The notes: generated from the sequence alone by a model not told the origin. A stretch of 41,355 bases of DNA from a virus (IMGVR_UViG_3300045988_021954:1-41355); one strand, 5' to 3'; positions 18,503 to 28,302 are shown, counted from the stretch's first letter. A program made the numbers and translations.

Positions 18503-18730
18503 ATGAAAAAGCAGGCAATGCAGATCCTTGACAGCGCATTTAATACGCTGTCTTTGGTGATGATCTCCGCGAACGACGCGGAGAAGATGGCAAAGGTCAA
18601 GGGAGAGCTGAGGCAGGCATATGCGATCCTTGAGCGGCTTGACCAGCAGACGGCGCACGTCCCCGCAGAGCCGCCCGCCAAAGAGGGCAAGACGAAGCTG
18701 GAAAAGGAAAGCGAGGTAACTGATGGCTGA
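18503..18730 (+). CDS. Hypothetical protein (75 aa)
   Basis: RBS GGAGGAC. Helical. Overlaps the next gene start. Confidence 0.5.
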   Translation: MKKQAMQILDSAFNTLSLVMISANDAEKMAKVKGELRQAYAILERLDQQTAHVPAEPPAKEGKTKLEKESEVTDG

Positions 18731-19937
18731 TAAAGCAATTGTTGATAAAGCAATTTCTGACCTCACCCAAGCGTTACAAATCACAAACGAAGACCTGTTT
18801 GTGCTTGAGCAGAGCGGCGAGGCGAAGAAGCTGAGAGGTGAAACGCTGCTGAACTTTGTCACGCTGAGTGTTGTATCGGTCACGGTGACAACGCTACCCG
18901 CTGGAAGCTCGGCAACGGCAACTTACGACAAGTCGACTGGTACGCTGGCGCTTGGCATCCCGCAGGGCAGCAAGGGCGACACCGGCGCGACCGGTGCGAC
19001 TGGCCCCGCAAACGTGCTGACCATCGGCTCGGTCACGTCCGGGAAGGTGGCGAGCGCGACCATTACCGGCGAAGCTCCGAATCAGGTGCTTAACCTTGTG
19101 CTCGAAAAAGGCGACAAGGGTGAACAGGGTAAGCAGGGTATTCAGGGTGAACAGGGTAAGCAGGGTATTCGGGGTGAAATTGGTCCACAGGGCAATCCCG
19201 GCGCAGATGCTCCCACGATTACTGGCATCACCATCCGGCAGAGCGACTATCACCTTATCGTGACGCTGTCGAACGGCACGAGCTATGACGCAGGCTATTG
19301 CCGTGGCGCTTCTGGTGCTGGTACGGGTGACATGCTGGCCTCAGTGTATGACCCTCAAAACAAGCGCCAGGACATCTTTGCATACATTGATAATGCTATC
19401 AAGGATGTCAAGGTAACTACTGACGCAACGCCTACGCAAGGCAGCGCGAACCCTGTGCAGTCGGGCGGCGTGTATTCGGCTCTCACCAATAAGCTGGACA
19501 AGACCGGCAACGGCAGTAACGTCACGGCGGCGTTCACGGCGGCAACCACCCGCGCAAACGTTGCGACGGGCGAAAAGCTTTCCGTGCTGTTTGGCAAGAT
19601 CGCAAAGTGGTTCGCCGACCTCGGCAGTCTGGCCTTTAAGTCTACGGTGGCAAAATCCGACCTTGCAAGCGACGTGCAGGCGAGTTTGGGCAAGGCTGAC
19701 AGCGCTTTGCAGAGTGCGCCGGTCACGTCGGTCAACGGCAAGACGGGCGCGGTCACGGTGAGTGTTCCGACAGTCCCCTCCACCACCTCTCTCATCAAGG
19801 GCAACGGCTCGGGCGGGCTGGTAGCAGCGACGCGTGGCAGCGACTACATCGCATCCGGCAACATTGTTAAGCAGACGCTTGTCGCAACGGAGACCACGCC
19901 CACCGAGAACTACGCGATCAACTGGCTGTTCGGCTAA
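18723..19937 (+). CDS. Tail fibre with collagen-like G-X-Y repeats
   Basis: GSKGDTGATGATGPA and KGDKGEQGKQGIQGEQGKQGIRGEIGPQGNPGA triplet repeats. Confidence 0.75.
   Translation: MADKAIVDKAISDLTQALQITNEDLFVLEQSGEAKKLRGETLLNFVTLSVVSVTVTTLPAGSSATATYDKSTGTLALGIPQGSKGDTGATGATGPANVLTIGSVTSGKVASATITGEAPNQVLNLVLEKGDKGEQGKQGIQGEQGKQGIRGEIGPQGNPGADAPTITGITIRQSDYHLIVTLSNGTSYDAGYCRGASGAGTGDMLASVYDPQNKRQDIFAYIDNAIKDVKVTTDATPTQGSANPVQSGGVYSALTNKLDKTGNGSNVTAAFTAATTRANVATGEKLSVLFGKIAKWFADLGSLAFKSTVAKSDLASDVQASLGKADSALQSAPVTSVNGKTGAVTVSVPTVPSTTSLIKGNGSGGLVAATRGSDYIASGNIVKQTLVATETTPTENYAINWLFG
19119..19172 (+). repeat. 27-bp tandem duplication inside the collagen-like segment
   Basis: ggtgaacagggtaagcagggtattcag / ggtgaacagggtaagcagggtattcgg (26 of 27 identical). 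Confidence 0.9.
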
Positions 19938-23085: not shown

Positions 23086-23176
23086 ATGTGCCCGAATCGG
23101 GCACGGAAAGGGAAACGGGCGGGAGACCTGCAACGTCTCCCCTCGCGTGAGCGCTCTGCAAGCCCCGGTGCACAGC

Positions 23177-23422
23177 ATGGACAAGCAGCACCGAGCGATC
23201 CGCGCGCAACTATCCTCTATGGCCCCGCGCAGGGCTATAGCATACATCCAAGCCTATGACCTGCCGCCCGATGAGATGGCATGCCTCATCGAGTGTGACG
23301 TGCGAGGGCATTCCCTCGTGCAGGTCGCCGCTCAGCTCCACATGAGCGTGGACGGCCTCGCCAAGCTGCGCCGCCGGGCTTACCGCAAGCTTGCCGACGG
23401 GCAGAAAGAGAGCACCGACTAA
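23177..23422 (+). CDS. Sigma-70 region-4-like HTH protein (81 aa)
   Basis: LPPDEMACLIECDVRGHSLVQVAAQLHMSVDGLAKLRRRAYRKLA fits the region 4.2 pattern. Start uncertain (GTG at 23147 is possible). Confidence 0.5.
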   Translation: MDKQHRAIRAQLSSMAPRRAIAYIQAYDLPPDEMACLIECDVRGHSLVQVAAQLHMSVDGLAKLRRRAYRKLADGQKESTD

Positions 23423-24833: not shown

Positions 24834-24877
24834 TTTTGTTTCCTCCCGGGGTGTTCCCCTCTCTTGTTTACATGCTT

Positions 24878-24906
24878 ATTATACGCTAATATTAGCGTAT
24901 TGTCAA
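24878..24906 (-). promoter_or_regulatory. Consensus sigma-70 promoter with embedded 20-bp palindromic operator
   Basis: On the minus strand: TTGACA (24906-24901), 17-nt spacer, TATAAT (24883-24878). Perfect palindrome ATACGCTAATATTAGCGTAT at 24881-24900. Confidence 0.8.
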
Positions 24907-24940
24907 GAAAAAATCACAGAGTTTTGAAGAAATTTTTGAG

Positions 24941-24988
24941 GGCAAAACGCGGGCATTTTGCGGGCAATTTCCCGCGGCAAAATCGCGG
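24941..24988 (+). promoter_or_regulatory. GGCAA(A/T)..CGCGG repeat cluster upstream of the rightward cargo operon
   Basis: GGCAAAACGCGGG (24941-24953), GGGCAATTTCCCGCGG (24962-24977), GGCAAAATCGCGG (24976-24988), plus the inverted pair GCAAAA / TTTTGC. Confidence 0.4.
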
Positions 24989-25020
24989 TACGATAGGGGC
25001 AACAAAAGGAGGTGCGCGCG

Positions 25021-25143
25021 ATGTACGACCGACTTTTAGCTTTGGGATTTACCGAGCAGATGGCGATGGACATTCTCGCGCTTTTTCCTGACCCTGACGA
25101 GCTGCGCACTTACGTCTATTTCGCGGAGCTTTTCCATGTATAG
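25021..25143 (+). CDS. Small hypothetical protein (40 aa)
   Basis: ATG after AAAAGGAGGTG. Product MYDRLLALGFTEQMAMDILALFPDPDELRTYVYFAELFHV. Overlaps the next start. Confidence 0.45.
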   Translation: MYDRLLALGFTEQMAMDILALFPDPDELRTYVYFAELFHV

Positions 25144-25519
25144 CTATTTCAACCCGAATCCAAACGGGCGCAACGTCAGCGACTGCACCGTGCGCGCGAT
25201 CTGCAAGGCGACGGGGAAGGACTGGGGCGAAGTTTATTTGTCTCTGTGCATACAGGGATACTTGGACGGCGACTTGCCCAATGCAAACGCCTGTTGGGGC
25301 GCATATCTGCGGTCGCTCGGCTATCGGCGCTATATCATGCCGGACACTTGCCCGGACTGCTACACGGTCGGCAGATTTGCTGATGAGCACCCGCGCGGGA
25401 CGTATATTCTCGCGCTTTCTGGTCATGTGGTCTGCGTGCAGGATGGTGTAATTTACGACAGCTGGAACAGCGAGAACGAAATCCCGCTTTATTATTGGGT
25501 CAAAGAAACGGAGGAATGA
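25136..25519 (+). CDS. Hypothetical protein with possible papain-like Cys-His-Asp arrangement
   Basis: SDCTVRAI ... LSGHVVCV ... YDSWNS are ordered as in cysteine-peptidase triads. The assignment is tentative. Confidence 0.35.
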   Translation: MYSYFNPNPNGRNVSDCTVRAICKATGKDWGEVYLSLCIQGYLDGDLPNANACWGAYLRSLGYRRYIMPDTCPDCYTVGRFADEHPRGTYILALSGHVVCVQDGVIYDSWNSENEIPLYYWVKETEE

Positions 25520-25521
25520 AC

Positions 25522-25959
25522 ATGGCATATCCCTATTTCAATCCCTATTATCCGCAGCCAATGCCAGACAACCTCATGCAGATGCGGCAGATGCAGCAGC
25601 CACAAATGCAGCCCATGCAGCAGCCTATGTCGCAGCCAGTGCAACAGAACCCCATCGCACAGGGCGGCGTGCAGTGGGTAAGCGGCGAGCAGGAGGCGAG
25701 AGGCTATCTCATCGCGCCCAACTCTGCTGTGGCGCTGTGGGATTCTACCGCGCCGACTGTGTATCTCAAGCAGGCGGATGCAAGCGGCAAGCCAACGCTC
25801 AAGATTTATGACCTCGTAGAACGCGCAGAAACGCCCCGCACAGCGCCGCAGGAAAAGGGCGTGGAATTTGTCACCCGCAAGGAGTTTGACGCACTGGCGG
25901 CTCTTGTGGGCGAAATAAAGGGCAAGAAGAAGCGCAAGGAGGACGATGACGATGACTAA
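25522..25959 (+). CDS. Q/P/M-rich low-complexity N-terminus protein (145 aa), unknown
   Basis: ATG after ACGGAGGAATGAAC. PYYPQPMPDNLMQMRQMQQPQMQPMQQPMSQPVQQ followed by a globular domain and a KKKRKEDDDDD tail. Confidence 0.6.
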   Translation: MAYPYFNPYYPQPMPDNLMQMRQMQQPQMQPMQQPMSQPVQQNPIAQGGVQWVSGEQEARGYLIAPNSAVALWDSTAPTVYLKQADASGKPTLKIYDLVERAETPRTAPQEKGVEFVTRKEFDALAALVGEIKGKKKRKEDDDDD

Positions 25960-26170
25960 TCCGTTTATGGCCGCGCTGGGCGGCGGGCAGATGCCGGGGC
26001 CGATAAGTGAGCTGATGCAGCTCAAGCAGAAATTCCAACAGTTCCAAAGCGGCTTTCAGGGAAACCCAAAAGAAGAAGTCAATAAGCTCCTGCAATCTGG
26101 TGCGATGAGCCAGCAGGAGTTAAACCAACTGCAATCTATGGCAAAACAGTTTGAGCATTTATTCCATTGA
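25952..26170 (+). CDS. Hypothetical Q-rich helical protein (72 aa)
   Basis: ATG 9 nt after AAGGAGG. Overlaps the previous stop. Confidence 0.5.
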   Translation: MTNPFMAALGGGQMPGPISELMQLKQKFQQFQSGFQGNPKEEVNKLLQSGAMSQQELNQLQSMAKQFEHLFH

Positions 26171-26221
26171 TCTTATCGTGGCCGCGATTTGATAAATAAA
26201 ATTTATGAAAGGAGAGATAAT

Positions 26222-26935
26222 ATGTCTCTTTCCGACGGTGCTCCCATGATGACTATGCCGGTCGCGCCCGCGAACAATTACGGCGGCGGTATGGGTATGT
26301 GGGGCGACAACTGGATCTGGATTATCGTTCTTTTCCTCTTCGGCTGGGGCCGCAACGGATTTGGCAACGGTAACGGCGGCGGTGTGATGGACGGCTACGT
26401 TCTGACCTCTGACTTTGCGAGCGTTGAGCGTAAGCTCGACAGCATTTCGAATGGCATTTGCGATTCCACCTTCGCGTTGAACAATGCCATTACTGGTGGC
26501 TTTGCTACGACCGCACAGGCCATCAACAGCGGCTTCGGCAATGCCGAGCTGTCCCGCGCAAACCAGCAGGCGGCTCTCATGCAGCAGCTCAACGCCATGC
26601 AGATGCAGGCTGCTAATTGCTGCTGCGAGAATCGCGCGGCTATCGCGCAGGTGCGCTATGACATGGCGACGCAGGCGTGCGACACGCGCAACACCGTGCA
26701 GAACGCCACGCGCGACATCATTGACGCGAACAACCAGAACAGCCGCGCGATCCTCGACTTCCTGACGCAGAGCAAGCTCTCTGACCTTCAGGCCGAGAAC
26801 CAAGGCTTGAAGCTGGCGGCAAGCCAGGCGGCGCAGAACAGCTATCTGGTCTCGCAGCTGCGGCCCTCCCCCATTCCGGCCTACACGGTGCAGAACCCCT
26901 ATTGCTGCAACCAGTTTGCCGGTTGCGGCTGCTGA
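26222..26935 (+). CDS. Membrane protein with Gly-rich segment, coiled coil and Cys-rich C-terminus (237 aa)
   Basis: ATG after GAAAGGAGAG. TM WIWIIVLFLFGW, GFGNGNGGG, internal CCC, C-terminal YCCNQFAGCGC. Confidence 0.65.
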   Translation: MSLSDGAPMMTMPVAPANNYGGGMGMWGDNWIWIIVLFLFGWGRNGFGNGNGGGVMDGYVLTSDFASVERKLDSISNGICDSTFALNNAITGGFATTAQAINSGFGNAELSRANQQAALMQQLNAMQMQAANCCCENRAAIAQVRYDMATQACDTRNTVQNATRDIIDANNQNSRAILDFLTQSKLSDLQAENQGLKLAASQAAQNSYLVSQLRPSPIPAYTVQNPYCCNQFAGCGC

Positions 26936-27089
26936 CAACTGCATAGCATAGCTTCTCGGGCACCATATCGGTGACGTTACCGAGATGGTCGGCCCCGTGC
27001 CGACACTGGAAACAACGCGGCGGGGCAATAGCCCTGCCGCTGTATTTTAACCGGGTCGAAATCGACCCCTTTAGAAAGGACTGATTATT

Positions 27090-27512
27090 TTGGCAGAGTA
27101 CACAAATGCAAATATTGTGAGCGTAGCCGCTGGGCAGAACGTTCCCTTGACCGAAACGGCGGTCAATAGCAAGCCCTGTATCTTGCATCGCCAGGGCGCA
27201 GGCATTGTCACGCTGCGCGGCCTCACCAATCAAAACCGCGCTCTGTTTCGGGTCTCCTATGGCGGCAACATCGCTATTCCTACCGGAGGCACGGTTGAGG
27301 CCATCACGGCGGCGCTTGCCATTAACGGAGAGCCGTTGACCAGCGCAACAGCTACCGTCACGCCTGCGGCGGTAGAAAATTACTTTAACATTTATGTTTC
27401 CGCACAGGTCTGCGTCCCGAAAGGCTGCTACCTGACGGTCGCAATGGAAAACACCAGCACTCAGGCCGTCAACTTCGCCAACTCGAATCTGACGGTTGAG
27501 AGAATCGCGTGA
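27090..27512 (+). CDS. Beta-rich protein, possibly C1q/BclA-C-terminal-like fold (140 aa)
   Basis: TTG start after AAAGGA. ...LAINGEPLTSATATVTPAA...VAMENTSTQAVNFANSNLTVERIA loosely resembles the layout of the BclA C-terminal domain. Confidence 0.45.
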   Translation: MAEYTNANIVSVAAGQNVPLTETAVNSKPCILHRQGAGIVTLRGLTNQNRALFRVSYGGNIAIPTGGTVEAITAALAINGEPLTSATATVTPAAVENYFNIYVSAQVCVPKGCYLTVAMENTSTQAVNFANSNLTVERIA

Positions 27513-27525
27513 AAGGAGAATGGAC

Positions 27526-27933
27526 ATGAGCAAGAAAGCAATGTATGATCTGCGCAATATGCTGTGCAACGAACTCGACGAGCTGGCACGTAAGGGCGAG
27601 CTTGGCGCGTGCGATCTCGAAATTGCGCACAAGCTGACGGACACCATCAAGAACATCGATAAGATTGAGATGTTGGAGGACGACGGCTATTCCCGCGATG
27701 AAGACTATTCTCGCCGCTATTCCCGCGACGGAGACTGGCAGTCTGGTATGCGCGGCGCTTATGACCGTGATATGTCCAATGCGAGACGCGGCACGCATTA
27801 TGTGCGCGGCCACTATTCCCGTGATGGTGGTATCGACAACATGAAACGCCAGTTGCAGGAAATGCTGGACAACTCCGACGACGAAAGCATCCGCAGAGCC
27901 ATCCAGCGCTGCATGGACACGATTGAGGGCTAA
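27526..27933 (+). CDS. Hypothetical protein with YSRD repeats (135 aa)
   Basis: ATG 7 nt after AAAGGAG. DDGYSRDEDYSRRYSRDGDW...GHYSRDGG. Confidence 0.6.
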   Translation: MSKKAMYDLRNMLCNELDELARKGELGACDLEIAHKLTDTIKNIDKIEMLEDDGYSRDEDYSRRYSRDGDWQSGMRGAYDRDMSNARRGTHYVRGHYSRDGGIDNMKRQLQEMLDNSDDESIRRAIQRCMDTIEG

Positions 27934-27948
27934 AGTGGGTGCGCCCCT

Positions 27949-28269
27949 ATGGTCGACGAGAATGAGGTCAATCGCTGGATAGCTCGCCTTGAAACAGAGG
28001 AATCGAGTTGGACAAACTATGAGCGCCTTGCCGTGCTGTATGCCATCCGTGACCAGCAAAGCAGCAGCAGGGAGAGGGCTTTGCCAATGGCATACTCCGC
28101 AGCACCCGCGCCGGTTAGCGTCGAAACATACGGCGACAGCGACTTCCTGCGCGCAGTGGCAGATATTCCGCCGGACAAGGCGTGGGAGATCATGGACGAG
28201 CTGATGGACAGTTTGAAAATTGTGAACGAGCGCGTCTATAATAGCGTCATGCGTAAGCTCGAAAAATGA
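27949..28269 (+). CDS. Hypothetical protein (106 aa)
   Basis: Last ORF of the rightward operon. Followed by a terminator. Confidence 0.55.
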   Translation: MVDENEVNRWIARLETEESSWTNYERLAVLYAIRDQQSSSRERALPMAYSAAPAPVSVETYGDSDFLRAVADIPPDKAWEIMDELMDSLKIVNERVYNSVMRKLEK

Positions 28270-28274
28270 GAACA

Positions 28275-28302
28275 CCCCCGTCGTAAGGCGGGGGATTCTT
28301 TT
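28275..28302 (+). terminator. Rho-independent terminator
   Basis: CCCCCG-tcgtaagg-CGGGGG followed by ATTCTTTT. Confidence 0.7.

What the first reader, a model, noticed from the sequence alone, without database searches (positions are those of the whole stretch)
25021..28302. Rightward 8-gene cargo operon of unknown function
Eight tightly coupled ORFs lie between the lysis genes and the integrase and end at a terminator. None belongs to a standard phage module:
- A 40-aa peptide.
- A protein with a Cys...His...Asp order suggesting a papain-like peptidase.
- A protein with a PYYPQPM...(QPM)n low-complexity head and a KKKRKEDDDDD tail.
- A Q-rich 72-aa helix.
- A 237-aa membrane protein with GFGNGNGGG, an internal CCC and a YCCNQFAGCGC terminus.
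- A 140-aa all-beta protein whose layout loosely recalls C1q/BclA C-terminal domains.
- A YSRD-repeat protein.
- A 106-aa acidic protein.
Cys-rich cross-linkable proteins, Q/P-rich proteins and C1q-like proteins together are reminiscent of spore-surface or exosporium assemblies. That link is speculative. The set could instead be a surface-remodelling, exclusion or defence module.
Basis: inference. Interest (0 to 1): 0.65.

Follow-up and report, generated by a model that had tools for sequence, protein, structure and literature searches.

The report
Conserved gut-phage module, unknown function
The eight genes are real, but they are not strain-specific cargo: they are a conserved, uncharacterised module carried by thousands of gut phages, and one product folds like the bacterial spore-surface anchor proteins ExsF/BxpB.

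Summary
Eight same-strand ORFs (25021-28269) end at a hairpin terminator, and all are under purifying selection (pN/pS 0.08-0.30).

The "cargo" reading does not hold. The same genes, in the same order, occur in the apparently virulent Butyrivibrio phage Ceridwen. P2 to P8 (P8 detected least often) are syntenic in 80 genome and MAG loci, mostly Oscillospiraceae and Lachnospiraceae, usually at the far end of the late operon. Recognisable upstream neighbours are mostly lysis genes.

None of the eight matches Pfam, NCBIfam, PADLOC or, for the six profiles tried, PDB sequences. Six match PHROG families of unknown function.

- **P6 (140 aa):** modelled at pLDDT 93.5. It is a TNF/C1q jelly-roll closest to ExsF/ExsFA/BxpB and the BclA C-terminal domain (TM about 0.7).
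- **P5:** one hydrophobic segment, a long helical rod and invariant CCC and C-terminal Cys/Pro motifs. Its family also occurs in C. perfringens, Bacteroides and crAss-like phages and in viruses assigned to methanogens.
- **P2:** keeps an invariant Cys-His-Asp.

My best guess, at low confidence, is a membrane-anchored, cysteine-stapled P5 rod capped by a P6 trimer, built during lytic growth. A spore-surface role is unlikely. The biological role remains unknown.

The parts
25021..25143 (+). P1, 40-aa peptide gene; overlaps the start of P2 by 8 nt
   Evidence: ORF and GGAGG-type ribosome-binding site. pN/pS 0.11 and intact in 59 of 59 close relatives. A similar motif occurs in the ORF upstream of the P2 homologue in phage Ceridwen (by eye).
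25136..25519 (+). P2, 127-aa predicted cysteine peptidase (Cys17-His97-Asp108)
   Evidence: phrog_3754, E = 1e-35. D16, C17, R20, H97, D108 and W110 are invariant in 40 homologues. Homologues stand alone in Tsamsa-like Bacillus phages (labelled 'putative peptidase'), GBK2 and Lak megaphages. No Pfam or PDB sequence match. Fold not modelled.
25522..25959 (+). P3, 145 aa: Pro/Gln/Met-rich disordered head, a conserved region of about 55 aa that I read as a beta domain (not modelled), a C-terminal helix and a KKKRKEDDDDD tail
   Evidence: phrog_21718, E = 4e-33. Syntenic in 58 of 80 loci. Homologous to C. perfringens phage CPD1 gp036 (hhalign probability 95%). No PDB match.
25946..26170 (+).
   Evidence: phrog_22984, E = 3e-18. 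Syntenic in 43 of 80 loci. A similar protein lies at the same position in CPD1 (by eye).
26222..26935 (+). P5, 237 aa: acidic N-tail, Gly-flanked hydrophobic segment (about residues 26-43), helical rod (about 62-211) with invariant CCC133-135, and a Pro/Cys-rich tail (P217, P219, C229, C235, C237)
   Evidence: phrog_16490, E = 1.5e-38. At least 8000 database clusters. Invariant columns. Charge and hydrophobicity survey. AF2 predicts long helices but with low confidence (pLDDT 49). Homologues in C. perfringens, Bacteroides, crAss-like and Methanomassiliicoccales-assigned viruses.
26936..27089 (+). Structured P5-P6 spacer with a terminator-like hairpin (27017-27040, then a U-run) and a second hairpin
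   Evidence: z = -4.8; none of 200 shuffles folds as well. No Rfam family matches.
27090..27512 (+). P6, 140-aa stand-alone TNF/C1q-fold protein, closest to ExsF/ExsFA/BxpB and the BclA C-terminal domain
   Evidence: phrog_20016, E = 1.6e-51. 520 clusters at 50% identity. AF2 pLDDT 93.5, pTM 0.87. Foldseek against PDB: 9h3d, 7r1m, 8d02, 9h38, 1wck, with E = 6e-7 to 7e-5 and TM 0.64-0.73. BFVD holds stand-alone 130-145-aa viral proteins with TM up to 0.89. Pfam BclA_C hit in 3 of 52 relatives.
27526..27933 (+). P7, 135 aa: N- and C-terminal regions that look helical (not modelled) flanking a Tyr/Ser/Arg/Asp-rich low-complexity middle
   Evidence: phrog_28802, E = 8.5e-10. Syntenic in 62 of 80 loci. 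No Pfam or PDB match.
27949..28269 (+). P8, 106-aa acidic protein with conserved YGDS-F...MDELM...Y motifs
   Evidence: Syntenic in 29 of 80 loci. Homologous to the C-terminal half of a 132-aa CPD1 protein (hhalign probability 89%). No PDB match.
28275..28294 (+). Intrinsic terminator hairpin closing the block (CCCCCG-loop-CGGGGG, then ATTCTTTT)
24834..25020 (.). Divergent regulatory region. It holds a 12/12 sigma-70 promoter on the minus strand (24906..24878) with a 16-bp perfect palindrome (24883-24898) in its spacer. No consensus + strand promoter was found.

Best explanation
The block is a self-contained, vertically conserved accessory module of tailed phages of gut Clostridia. It is not acquired cargo.

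**Shown**
- Seven to eight genes keep the same order in thousands of phages and prophages.
- The module usually forms the last part of the rightward late operon. Where the upstream neighbours are recognisable, they are mostly lysis genes.
- P6 has the ExsF/BxpB/BclA-C TNF-like jelly-roll fold.
- P5 has one hydrophobic segment, a predicted long helical region, and invariant CCC and C-terminal Pro/Cys motifs.
- P2 keeps an invariant Cys-His-Asp.

**Inferred mechanism**
- During lytic growth P5 inserts in the cytoplasmic membrane through its Gly-flanked hydrophobic segment.
- P5 oligomerises, probably as a trimer, into a helical rod of about 20 nm (my estimate from the helix length). The rod is stapled by inter-chain cystine knots or metal sites at the CCC and C-terminal CC..CxC motifs.
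- The conserved Pro-rich C-terminal tail of P5 (RPSPIPAYTVQNPY) docks into the inter-subunit clefts of a P6 trimer. This parallels the way the Pro-rich leaders of BclA and F-Anchor dock into ExsF/BxpB trimers.
- The P2 peptidase trims one component, as the BclA N-terminus is trimmed on attachment.
- The disorder-rich small proteins P1, P3, P4, P7 and P8 act as chaperones or adaptors.

The partner proteins lack signal peptides. The assembly is therefore either built on the cytoplasmic face of the membrane or completed when holin lesions open.

Its purpose is most likely an envelope-level function around the time of lysis, such as egress, masking of cell debris or exclusion of other phages. It is not a change to the spore or cell surface of the lysogen.
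For: **Conservation and synteny**
- All eight genes occur in the same order in phage Ceridwen.
- tblastn detects P2 in 54, P3 in 58, P4 in 43, P5 in 73, P6 in 80, P7 in 62 and P8 in 29 of 80 genome and MAG loci, always in the same order and strand.
- The block is under purifying selection.
- IMG/VR holds more than 576 relatives of P6.
- The P6 and P5 families each comprise about 8000 or more clusters.

**Position**
- Of 100 upstream ORFs from 38 loci, most match no Pfam family. The largest recognisable class is amidases, CHAP, GH25, M23 and holins.
- In L088 and L093 the endolysin match lies about 460 nt upstream of P2.
- Downstream lie integrases and repressors, or replication genes.
- In another phage lineage the module follows the tail-fibre genes, directly or after three unannotated genes.

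**Lytic carriers**
- The Ceridwen paper (PMC7372960).

**P6 fold**
-.

**ExsF/BxpB docking precedent**
- PMC12357932 and PMC10470788.

**P5 features**
-.

**P2 triad**
-.

**Homing endonucleases**
- They sit inside or beside the module in many relatives. From general knowledge, homing endonucleases tend to target conserved genes.

**Composition**
- G+C content is not atypical.
Against: - No experiment or multimer model links P5 to P6. The docking step is an analogy.
- The P5 tail does not match the exosporium-leader model, and no NCBIfam family matches any of the eight proteins.
- The AF2 model of P5 is unreliable (pLDDT 49). Its oligomeric state and membrane topology are unknown, and the charge bias is weak.
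- In C. perfringens phage CPD1 and Bacteroides phage C3_41T2LP the P5 gene lies among recombination and early-type genes rather than after lysis genes.
- In those phages the gene after P5 is not detectably homologous to P6.
- P2 is absent from the CPD1 stretch examined and from the Bacteroidota-type module. It occurs alone in other phages.
- In this window the block has its own regulatory region next to an XRE-type regulator, so expression from the prophage is not excluded.
Confidence: 0.35

Rival explanations
1. Virion accessory. P5 is a trimeric fibre shaft and P6 its knob, or P6 is a capsid cement or decoration protein. The pair is mounted on the particle to bind host or gut surfaces, and the small proteins act as assembly chaperones.
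For: - TNF-like knobs are common in phage receptor-binding and decoration proteins. Foldseek hits include the cyanophage A-1(L) tail-fibre receptor-binding domain, the phi812 central spike knob and BFVD entries labelled fibritin or tail fibre.
- A TNF-fold cement protein in phage KHP30 and a TNF-fold tail tip are described in PMC13517437.
- Annotators labelled P5 homologues 'spike protein' or 'viral fiber'.
- In cr52_1, vir335 and the DNA polymerase III phages the genes lie beside tail genes.
- P5 occurs across hosts with very different envelopes, which fits an environment-facing or particle function.
Against: - The block lies outside the head-tail module, downstream of the lysis genes, in this window, Ceridwen and Dulem virus 33. 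In CPD1 and C3_41T2LP the P5-like gene lies among early-type genes.
- A very hydrophobic 13-17-residue segment in P5 is unusual for a fibre anchor.
- No homology to any PHROG structural family.
- No proteomic evidence was found.
Confidence: 0.2
2. Lysis or egress accessory in the strict sense. P5 acts as a holin-like, T4-T-like or spanin-like membrane effector or timer. P2 is an extra wall or S-layer peptidase released through holin lesions. The other proteins are regulators.
For: - The module lies next to lysis genes in many Clostridia phages.
- In cr52_1 it lies next to a LysB/FtsL-like gene.
- The P5 architecture (short N-tail, one TM segment, long helical domain with Cys, Pro-rich end) parallels T4 holin T and lambda Rz/Rz1 (own knowledge).
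- All partners lack signal peptides, as canonical endolysins do.
Against: - The window already encodes an XhlA-like protein, a possible holin ORF and a CHAP endolysin.
- No holin or spanin family matches.
- The known or assigned hosts here are mostly Clostridia, which are generally monoderm and need no spanin (own knowledge).
- In CPD1 and C3_41T2LP the genes are not near lysis genes.
- A TNF-fold trimer has no known lysis role.
Confidence: 0.15
3. One reading: lysogenic-conversion cargo expressed from the prophage. It would remodel the cell or spore surface (exosporium-like), or act as a superinfection-exclusion or defence module.
For: - The block sits in the classic moron slot between the lysis genes and the integrase. 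It has its own terminator and a divergent regulatory region next to an XRE regulator.
- Integrases follow the module in at least 10 of 43 loci.
- P6 has the fold of exosporium proteins.
- A membrane protein could block DNA entry by other phages.
Against: - The complete block is present in the virulent phage Ceridwen and in non-integrating phages.
- G+C content is normal.
- Conservation is far higher than the patchy distribution typical of morons.
- Hosts include taxa I know as non-sporulating: Butyrivibrio, Bacteroides and methanogens.
- No BclA-like collagen protein, exosporium leader or ExsY/CotY was detected.
- No PADLOC match.
Confidence: 0.12

Closest known systems
ExsF/ExsFA/BxpB and the BclA C-terminal domain (exosporium basal-layer anchor and nap of the Bacillus cereus group; TNF/C1q superfamily, Pfam PF18573)
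   Same: P6 is a stand-alone protein of about 140 aa. Its confident model superposes on ExsF, ExsFA and BxpB (TM 0.67-0.73) and on the BclA and F-BclA C-terminal domains. Some family members hit PF18573. As in the exosporium, it is encoded alongside Cys-rich and Pro-rich partners.
   Different: Sequence identity is only 11-14%. The window protein itself does not reach any Pfam threshold. No collagen-like partner, exosporium leader peptide or ExsY/CotY lattice protein is present. The module is encoded by phages, including phages of hosts I know as non-sporulating. Trimerisation and peptide docking are untested.
TNF-fold knobs and cement proteins of phages (for example the phi812 central spike knob, the cyanophage A-1(L) tail-fibre receptor-binding domain and the KHP30 cement protein)
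   Same: Same fold class. It is commonly the distal trimeric head of a viral fibre or a capsid-surface trimer.
   Different: Here the domain is a separate small gene far from the head and tail genes. It is preceded by a membrane-type protein rather than fused to a fibre shaft.
Bitopic phage membrane proteins with long helical ectodomains and functional cysteines (T4 holin T, lambda i-spanin Rz)
   Same: P5 shares the layout: a short N-tail, a single hydrophobic segment, two long helices with a hinge, and conserved cysteines near the end. The comparison with these proteins rests on my own knowledge.
   Different: No sequence or family match. The known or assigned hosts here are mostly Clostridia, which are generally monoderm. 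The CCC and CGCGC motifs and the Gly-rich flanks are not features of those proteins.
C39-type and other papain-like cysteine peptidases
   Same: P2 has an invariant Cys, then His about 80 residues later, then Asp, in a domain of about 125 aa. The spacing is that of C39 leader peptidases (own knowledge). Bacillus phage homologues are labelled 'putative peptidase'.
   Different: No Pfam, NCBIfam or PDB sequence match. The fold was not modelled. No ABC transporter or double-glycine substrate was identified.

Membership tests
TNF/C1q-like BclA_C / ExsF-BxpB superfamily (P6) | Ten- to eleven-strand jelly-roll of the TNF type | tested here: met
   AF2 pLDDT 93.5 and pTM 0.87, all beta. Foldseek top hits are 9h3d, 7r1m, 8d02, 9h38 and 1wck, with E = 6e-7 to 7e-5 and TM 0.64-0.73.
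TNF/C1q-like BclA_C / ExsF-BxpB superfamily (P6) | Sequence match to Pfam PF18573 at the curated threshold | tested here: inconclusive
   The window protein has no hit at E < 1. Three of 52 diverse family members hit BclA_C, best E = 7e-7. The family profile finds no PDB chain.
TNF/C1q-like BclA_C / ExsF-BxpB superfamily (P6) | Homotrimer that binds a partner peptide in its inter-subunit clefts | not testable with these tools
   Only monomer prediction was available. The docking precedent comes from PMC12357932 and PMC10470788.
   No Pfam or NCBIfam hit for any of the eight proteins. The same block is carried by a phage of Butyrivibrio fibrisolvens, and P5 by phages of Bacteroides and by viruses assigned to methanogens. 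That these hosts do not sporulate is my own knowledge.
Papain-like / C39 cysteine peptidase (P2) | Conserved catalytic Cys, His and Asp/Asn in that order | tested here: met
   C17, H97 and D108 are invariant in 40 of 40 homologues.
Papain-like / C39 cysteine peptidase (P2) | Profile or structural match to a peptidase family | tested here: not met
   No Pfam, NCBIfam or PDB sequence hit.
Known anti-phage defence systems | Match to a PADLOC model | tested here: not met
   No hits for any of the eight proteins at E < 1.
Moron / lysogenic-conversion cargo | Patchy distribution, atypical composition, absence from lytic relatives, own promoter and terminator | tested here: not met
   Syntenic in 80 diverse loci. 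Present in virulent Ceridwen. G+C is 0.55-0.57 against 0.46-0.60 across the window. Only the terminator criterion is met.
Holins / spanins | Match to a holin or spanin family; for spanins, a host with an outer membrane | tested here: not met
   No Pfam or PHROG lysis family matches P5. The loci come mainly from Oscillospiraceae and Lachnospiraceae, which are generally monoderm (own knowledge).

The most novel reading that the evidence does not exclude
P5 (phrog_16490) marks a previously undescribed, gut-virome-wide apparatus. It would be a membrane-anchored, cysteine-knotted helical fibre that recruits a variable beta-sandwich cap: ExsF/BclA-like P6 in Clostridia phages and other beta-rich proteins in Bacteroidota, crAss-like and methanogen-assigned viruses. 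It would also recruit Tyr/Arg/Asp-rich and peptidase partners. On this reading it is a viral counterpart of the exosporium nap-anchoring principle. It would serve a step common to infection of monoderm, diderm and archaeal hosts, such as tethering particles or genomes at the membrane, or coating lysed-cell membranes.
Probability: 0.25. Interest if true: 0.85.

Novelty: categorically new. Interest (0 to 1): 0.6.

Why it matters
The module is one of the commonest multi-gene blocks of unknown function in human and animal gut phages. The P5 and P6 families each comprise about 8000 or more sequence clusters. None of its proteins belongs to a described family or system.

The work yields several usable leads:
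- a confident fold for one member (ExsF/BxpB-like);
- clear sequence signatures for P5 (CCC and the Cys/Pro tail);
- a candidate peptidase;
- three cultured phage-host pairs that carry P5 homologues: Ceridwen with Butyrivibrio fibrisolvens DSM 3071 (the whole block), CPD1 with C. perfringens (part of it), and C3_41T2LP with Bacteroides uniformis (a P5-like gene with different partners). Together these make the function directly testable.

If P5 and its partners build a membrane-anchored fibre, that would be a new structural element of phage infection shared across host phyla. It would also extend the ExsF-BclA anchoring principle beyond spores.

The result has a practical consequence for prophage annotation. 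These genes should not be counted as lysogenic-conversion cargo.

Tried and rejected
**Family and database scans**
- Pfam, NCBIfam and PADLOC scans of all eight proteins gave nothing significant.
- Profile searches of the P2, P3, P5, P6, P7 and P8 families against PDB sequences gave only chance-level hits.
- The Rfam scan of the block gave nothing.

**Structure prediction**
- AF2 of P5 with an 89-sequence alignment gave pLDDT 49 and pTM 0.19. I ran no fold search on it and draw only secondary-structure conclusions.

**Homology claims dropped**
- I first read CPD1 gp040 and the Bacteroides and crAss beta-rich proteins as P6 equivalents, and the CPD1 132-aa protein as a P7-P8 fusion.
- hhalign supports only P3 to gp036 (95%) and P8 to the C-terminal half of the 132-aa protein (89%).
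- It does not support P6 to gp040, P7 to the N-terminal half, or any Firmicutes-type partner to the Bacteroidota-type partners.
- Those equivalences are therefore positional only.

**Stop-codon recoding as a marker of late genes**
- TAG is recoded throughout the related DNA polymerase III phage. It is not enriched in the module, so it is uninformative.

**Searches that failed or were empty**
A smaller alignment and a single protein were used instead.
- A literature search for virion proteomics of the C. perfringens phages carrying the module found nothing usable.

**Ideas considered and dropped**
- A bacteriocin or RiPP cluster, because no transporter or maturase is present.
- Ena-type spore appendages, because no DUF3992 or DUF4183 hit was found.

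Full report
**1. The observation**

The window is a complete-looking temperate siphovirus-type genome. It encodes a methyltransferase, large terminase, portal, minor and major head proteins, tape measure, a tail fibre with a short collagen-like run, an XhlA-like protein, a CHAP endolysin, a serine integrase and a DnaC-like loader.

- P1, 40 aa
- P2, 127 aa
- P3, 145 aa, with a Pro/Gln/Met-rich head and a KKKRKEDDDDD tail
- P4, 72-74 aa
- P5, 237 aa, with GFGNGNGGG, CCC133-135 and a YCCNQFAGCGC end
- P6, 140 aa, with a TTG start confirmed by the conserved MAEYT N-terminus of homologues
- P7, 135 aa, with YSRD repeats
- P8, 106 aa, acidic

A hairpin terminator at 28275-28294 closes the block. 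Genes overlap or are separated by 2-51 nt. The exception is a 154-nt P5-P6 spacer that carries a strong terminator-like hairpin and folds far better than shuffled controls (z = -4.8).

Among 80 IMG/VR relatives that are 92-99% identical in P6, all eight ORFs show purifying selection. pN/pS is 0.08-0.30, and the 40-aa P1 scores 0.11.

One correction to the context. A Sigma70_r4-like gene and a leftward cassette that includes an HTH_3 regulator lie between the endolysin and P1. The divergent intergenic region holds a perfect sigma-70 promoter on the minus strand with a 16-bp palindrome in its spacer.

**2. What the proteins are**

None of the eight matches Pfam, NCBIfam or PADLOC. P2 to P7 match PHROG families, all labelled 'unknown function'.

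*P6.* The family has 520 clusters at 50% identity, nearly all stand-alone proteins of 135-157 aa. Three of 52 diverse members hit Pfam BclA_C, best E = 7e-7. An AF2 model built on 141 sequences is confident (pLDDT 93.5, pTM 0.87, all beta).

Foldseek against the PDB puts ExsF (9h3d), ExsFA (7r1m, 7r5i), BxpB (8d02), the F-BclA C-terminal domain (9h38) and the BclA C-terminal domain (1wck) on top. E-values run from 6e-7 to 7e-5 and TM from 0.64 to 0.73. TNF ligands, C1q domains and some phage fibre or spike knobs follow. BFVD contains many stand-alone viral proteins of 130-145 aa with the same fold (TM up to 0.89), some named 'BclA protein'.

*P2.* D16, C17, R20, H97, D108 and W110 are invariant in 40 homologues. 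This fits a papain-like or C39-like cysteine peptidase. No profile or PDB sequence match supports the assignment, and the fold was not modelled.

*P5.* It has an acidic N-tail of about 25-35 residues that is poor in Lys and Arg. A single hydrophobic segment follows, flanked by Gly-rich stretches. AF2 then predicts two long helices (62-101 and 109-211), though with low confidence (pLDDT 49). Invariant residues include CCC133-135, S201, Q202, Q205, P217, P219 and the C-terminal cysteines.

*P3, P4, P7 and P8.* These are small and rich in low-complexity sequence, and have no PDB relatives.

**3. Distribution and context**

The decisive result is conservation. Butyrivibrio phage Ceridwen has 40.8% G+C. 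It was observed only in lytic growth and its authors judge it virulent (PMC7372960). It carries recognisable homologues of all eight genes in the same order, with an endonuclease-like ORF inserted between P6 and P7.

In 80 loci from genomes and MAGs, P6 identity to the window is 42-86%. The loci are mainly Oscillospiraceae, Lachnospiraceae and other Clostridia. tblastn finds P2 in 54, P3 in 58, P4 in 43, P5 in 73, P7 in 62 and P8 in 29, always in the same order and strand. The misses are explained by contig ends and by short low-complexity queries.

Most ORFs within 2.6 kb upstream match no Pfam family. The largest recognisable class is lysis genes: Amidase_2 and Amidase_3, CHAP, GH25, M23, PG-binding domains and four holin families. 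In L088 and L093 the endolysin match lies about 460 nt upstream of P2. Downstream lie tyrosine integrases (10 ORFs from 43 loci), HTH regulators, replication or recombination genes, or host genes at prophage ends.

In a different phage lineage with DNA polymerase III alpha, NrdD and dUTPase, the module follows the tail-fibre genes and closes the rightward operon. It does so directly in L167/L168 and after three unannotated genes in L169-L171. G+C content of the block is unremarkable.

The block is therefore a conserved phage module, not acquired cargo. In this window it has probably been separated from the late operon by the leftward cassette, because L088 and L093 have the endolysin immediately upstream of P2.

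**4. Wider reach of P5**

The C-terminal part of P5, from the CCC motif onward, is found well beyond Clostridia phages:
- C. perfringens phages such as CPD1
- the cultured Bacteroides uniformis phage C3_41T2LP
- many crAss-like phages, where annotators called it 'spike protein/glycoprotein' or 'outer capsid protein/viral fiber'
- viruses assigned to Methanomassiliicoccales

In CPD1, homologues of P3 (hhalign 95%) and P8 (89%) accompany it.

In the Bacteroidota-type loci P5 heads a different but equally syntenic set. The set comprises a beta-rich protein, a 177-aa protein, a YDRDYDR-rich protein, a DUF7841 protein and a PolyVal metallopeptidase. B177, the DUF7841 protein and PolyVal are each found in 77-80 of 80 loci. 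These partners are not detectably homologous to P3, P6, P7 or P8. I therefore treat the parallel (beta-rich protein after P5, a Tyr/Arg/Asp-rich protein, a small peptidase) as positional only.

Endonuclease ORFs sit inside or beside the module in Ceridwen, Dulem virus 33, CPD1 and C3_41T2LP, and in 33 of 80 Bacteroidota-type loci. From general knowledge, this is typical of very conserved phage genes.

**5. Most likely mechanism**

Shown:
- a conserved lytic-cycle-compatible module;
- an ExsF/BxpB-like fold for P6;
- a membrane-type protein, P5, with predicted helices, a Cys-rich pattern and a conserved Pro-rich tail;
- a conserved Cys-His-Asp protein, P2.

Inferred by analogy with the exosporium:
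- In the exosporium, ExsF/BxpB trimers bind the Pro-rich N-terminal leaders of the trimeric fibres BclA and F-Anchor in their inter-subunit clefts. This happens after proteolytic trimming, and the assembly is tied to Cys-rich proteins (PMC12357932; PMC10470788).
- P5 would form a membrane-anchored oligomeric rod stapled through its CCC and CC..CxC motifs.
- Its C-terminal tail would be capped by a P6 trimer.
- P2 would process a component.
- The disorder-rich proteins would assist assembly.

Because the partners lack signal peptides, the complex would form on the cytoplasmic face of the membrane or be completed through holin lesions. Its usual position downstream of the lysis genes suggests a role at or after lysis. 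I give this composite model about 0.35.

The statement that the block is a conserved phage module rather than cargo I hold at about 0.9.

**6. Rivals**

- **Virion fibre or cement (0.2).** The TNF fold and several tail-proximal contexts favour it. The position of the genes outside the structural module, the very hydrophobic segment in P5 and the lack of proteomic evidence count against it.
- **Strict lysis effector (0.15).** Adjacency to lysis genes and a T4-T or Rz-like layout favour it. The presence of a separate holin and endolysin set, generally monoderm hosts and non-lysis contexts in CPD1 and C3_41T2LP count against it.
Its slot next to the integrase and its own regulatory region favour it. 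Presence in virulent phages, hosts I know as non-sporulating, and the absence of BclA, ExsY or PADLOC matches count against it.

**7. Comparison with known systems, and novelty**

P6 is a new, very divergent member of the TNF/C1q BclA_C-ExsF superfamily, with fold membership met and the sequence threshold inconclusive. The module as a whole matches no described phage, spore or defence system. Every other component lacks a curated family.

It is abundant and conserved, and for P5 it spans host phyla. I therefore rate it as lying outside known kinds of system, while stressing that its function is unproven. Interest is moderate to high (0.6). A specialist would not be surprised by unknown genes after a lysis cassette. 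A seven- to eight-gene, strictly syntenic block with an exosporium-anchor fold is a better lead, particularly as its Cys-knotted membrane rod is shared with crAss-like and methanogen-assigned viruses. Cultured phage-host systems are available to test it.

Noticed in passing
window 24878-24906: A 12/12 consensus sigma-70 promoter lies on the minus strand (TTGACA, 17 nt, TATAAT). A 16-bp perfect palindrome, ACGCTAATATTAGCGT (24883-24898), sits in its spacer. The site is in the divergent region between the leftward HTH_3 cassette and P1 and looks like an operator. No consensus + strand promoter for the block was found.
   Followed up: partly
window 26936-27089: The P5-P6 spacer is strongly structured (z = -4.8). 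It has a 10-bp GC-rich hairpin followed by a U-run (27017-27040), then a second hairpin. This could be an internal terminator or attenuator that splits the block into P1-P5 and P6-P8. Spacer length varies from about 10 to about 360 nt in relatives.
   Followed up: partly
L001 8449-9312; L002 7876-8427; L083 4017-4667; L172 3763-4383; 33 of L173-L252: HNH-type or other homing-endonuclease-like ORFs are repeatedly inserted inside or beside the module. The commonest position is next to the P5 gene.
   Followed up: partly
L167-L171 (for example L168 1-11009): A related phage lineage with DNA polymerase III alpha and NrdD reads TAG as a sense codon. Its tail-fibre genes carry 11-19 in-frame TAG codons. 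The module genes carry 0-2, and some replication-side genes carry 1-2.
   Followed up: partly
L253 4632-5555 (Caudoviricetes sp. vir335); also vir215: P5-family proteins (phrog_16490) are encoded by viruses assigned to the archaeal order Methanomassiliicoccales. This is unexpected for a protein otherwise seen in phages of Firmicutes and Bacteroidota. The host assignments were not checked.
   Followed up: no
L172 4482-7727 and L173-L252: The Bacteroidota-type module is P5-like, a beta-rich protein, a 177-aa protein, a YDRDYDR/RRRRR-rich 77-aa protein, a DUF7841 protein and a PolyVal metallopeptidase. The 177-aa, DUF7841 and PolyVal genes are each found in 77-80 of 80 IMG/VR loci. A metallopeptidase stands where the Firmicutes-type module has the Cys-His-Asp protein P2.
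   Followed up: partly
window 23147-23422; MAG loci in alignment A10: A 91-aa protein with a Sigma70 region-4 domain follows the endolysin in the window. Among ORFs upstream of the module in MAG loci, Sigma70_r2 and HATPase_c_2 each match two ORFs and STAS one. Together these would make a partner-switching-like set, but I did not check that they share a locus.
   Followed up: no
window 18723-19937: The tail-fibre protein has a short collagen-like G-X-Y run (GDKGEQGKQGIQGEQGKQGIRGEIGPQGNPG). No link to the ExsF-like P6 was tested.
   Followed up: no
window 25136-25519 homologues (L165, L166): P2 homologues occur as single genes among small early-type genes. They are found in Geobacillus phage GBK2 (just upstream of the recombinase, RecT and SSB genes), in Tsamsa-like Bacillus phages and in Lak megaphages. 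P2 is therefore more mobile than the rest of the block.
   Followed up: partly
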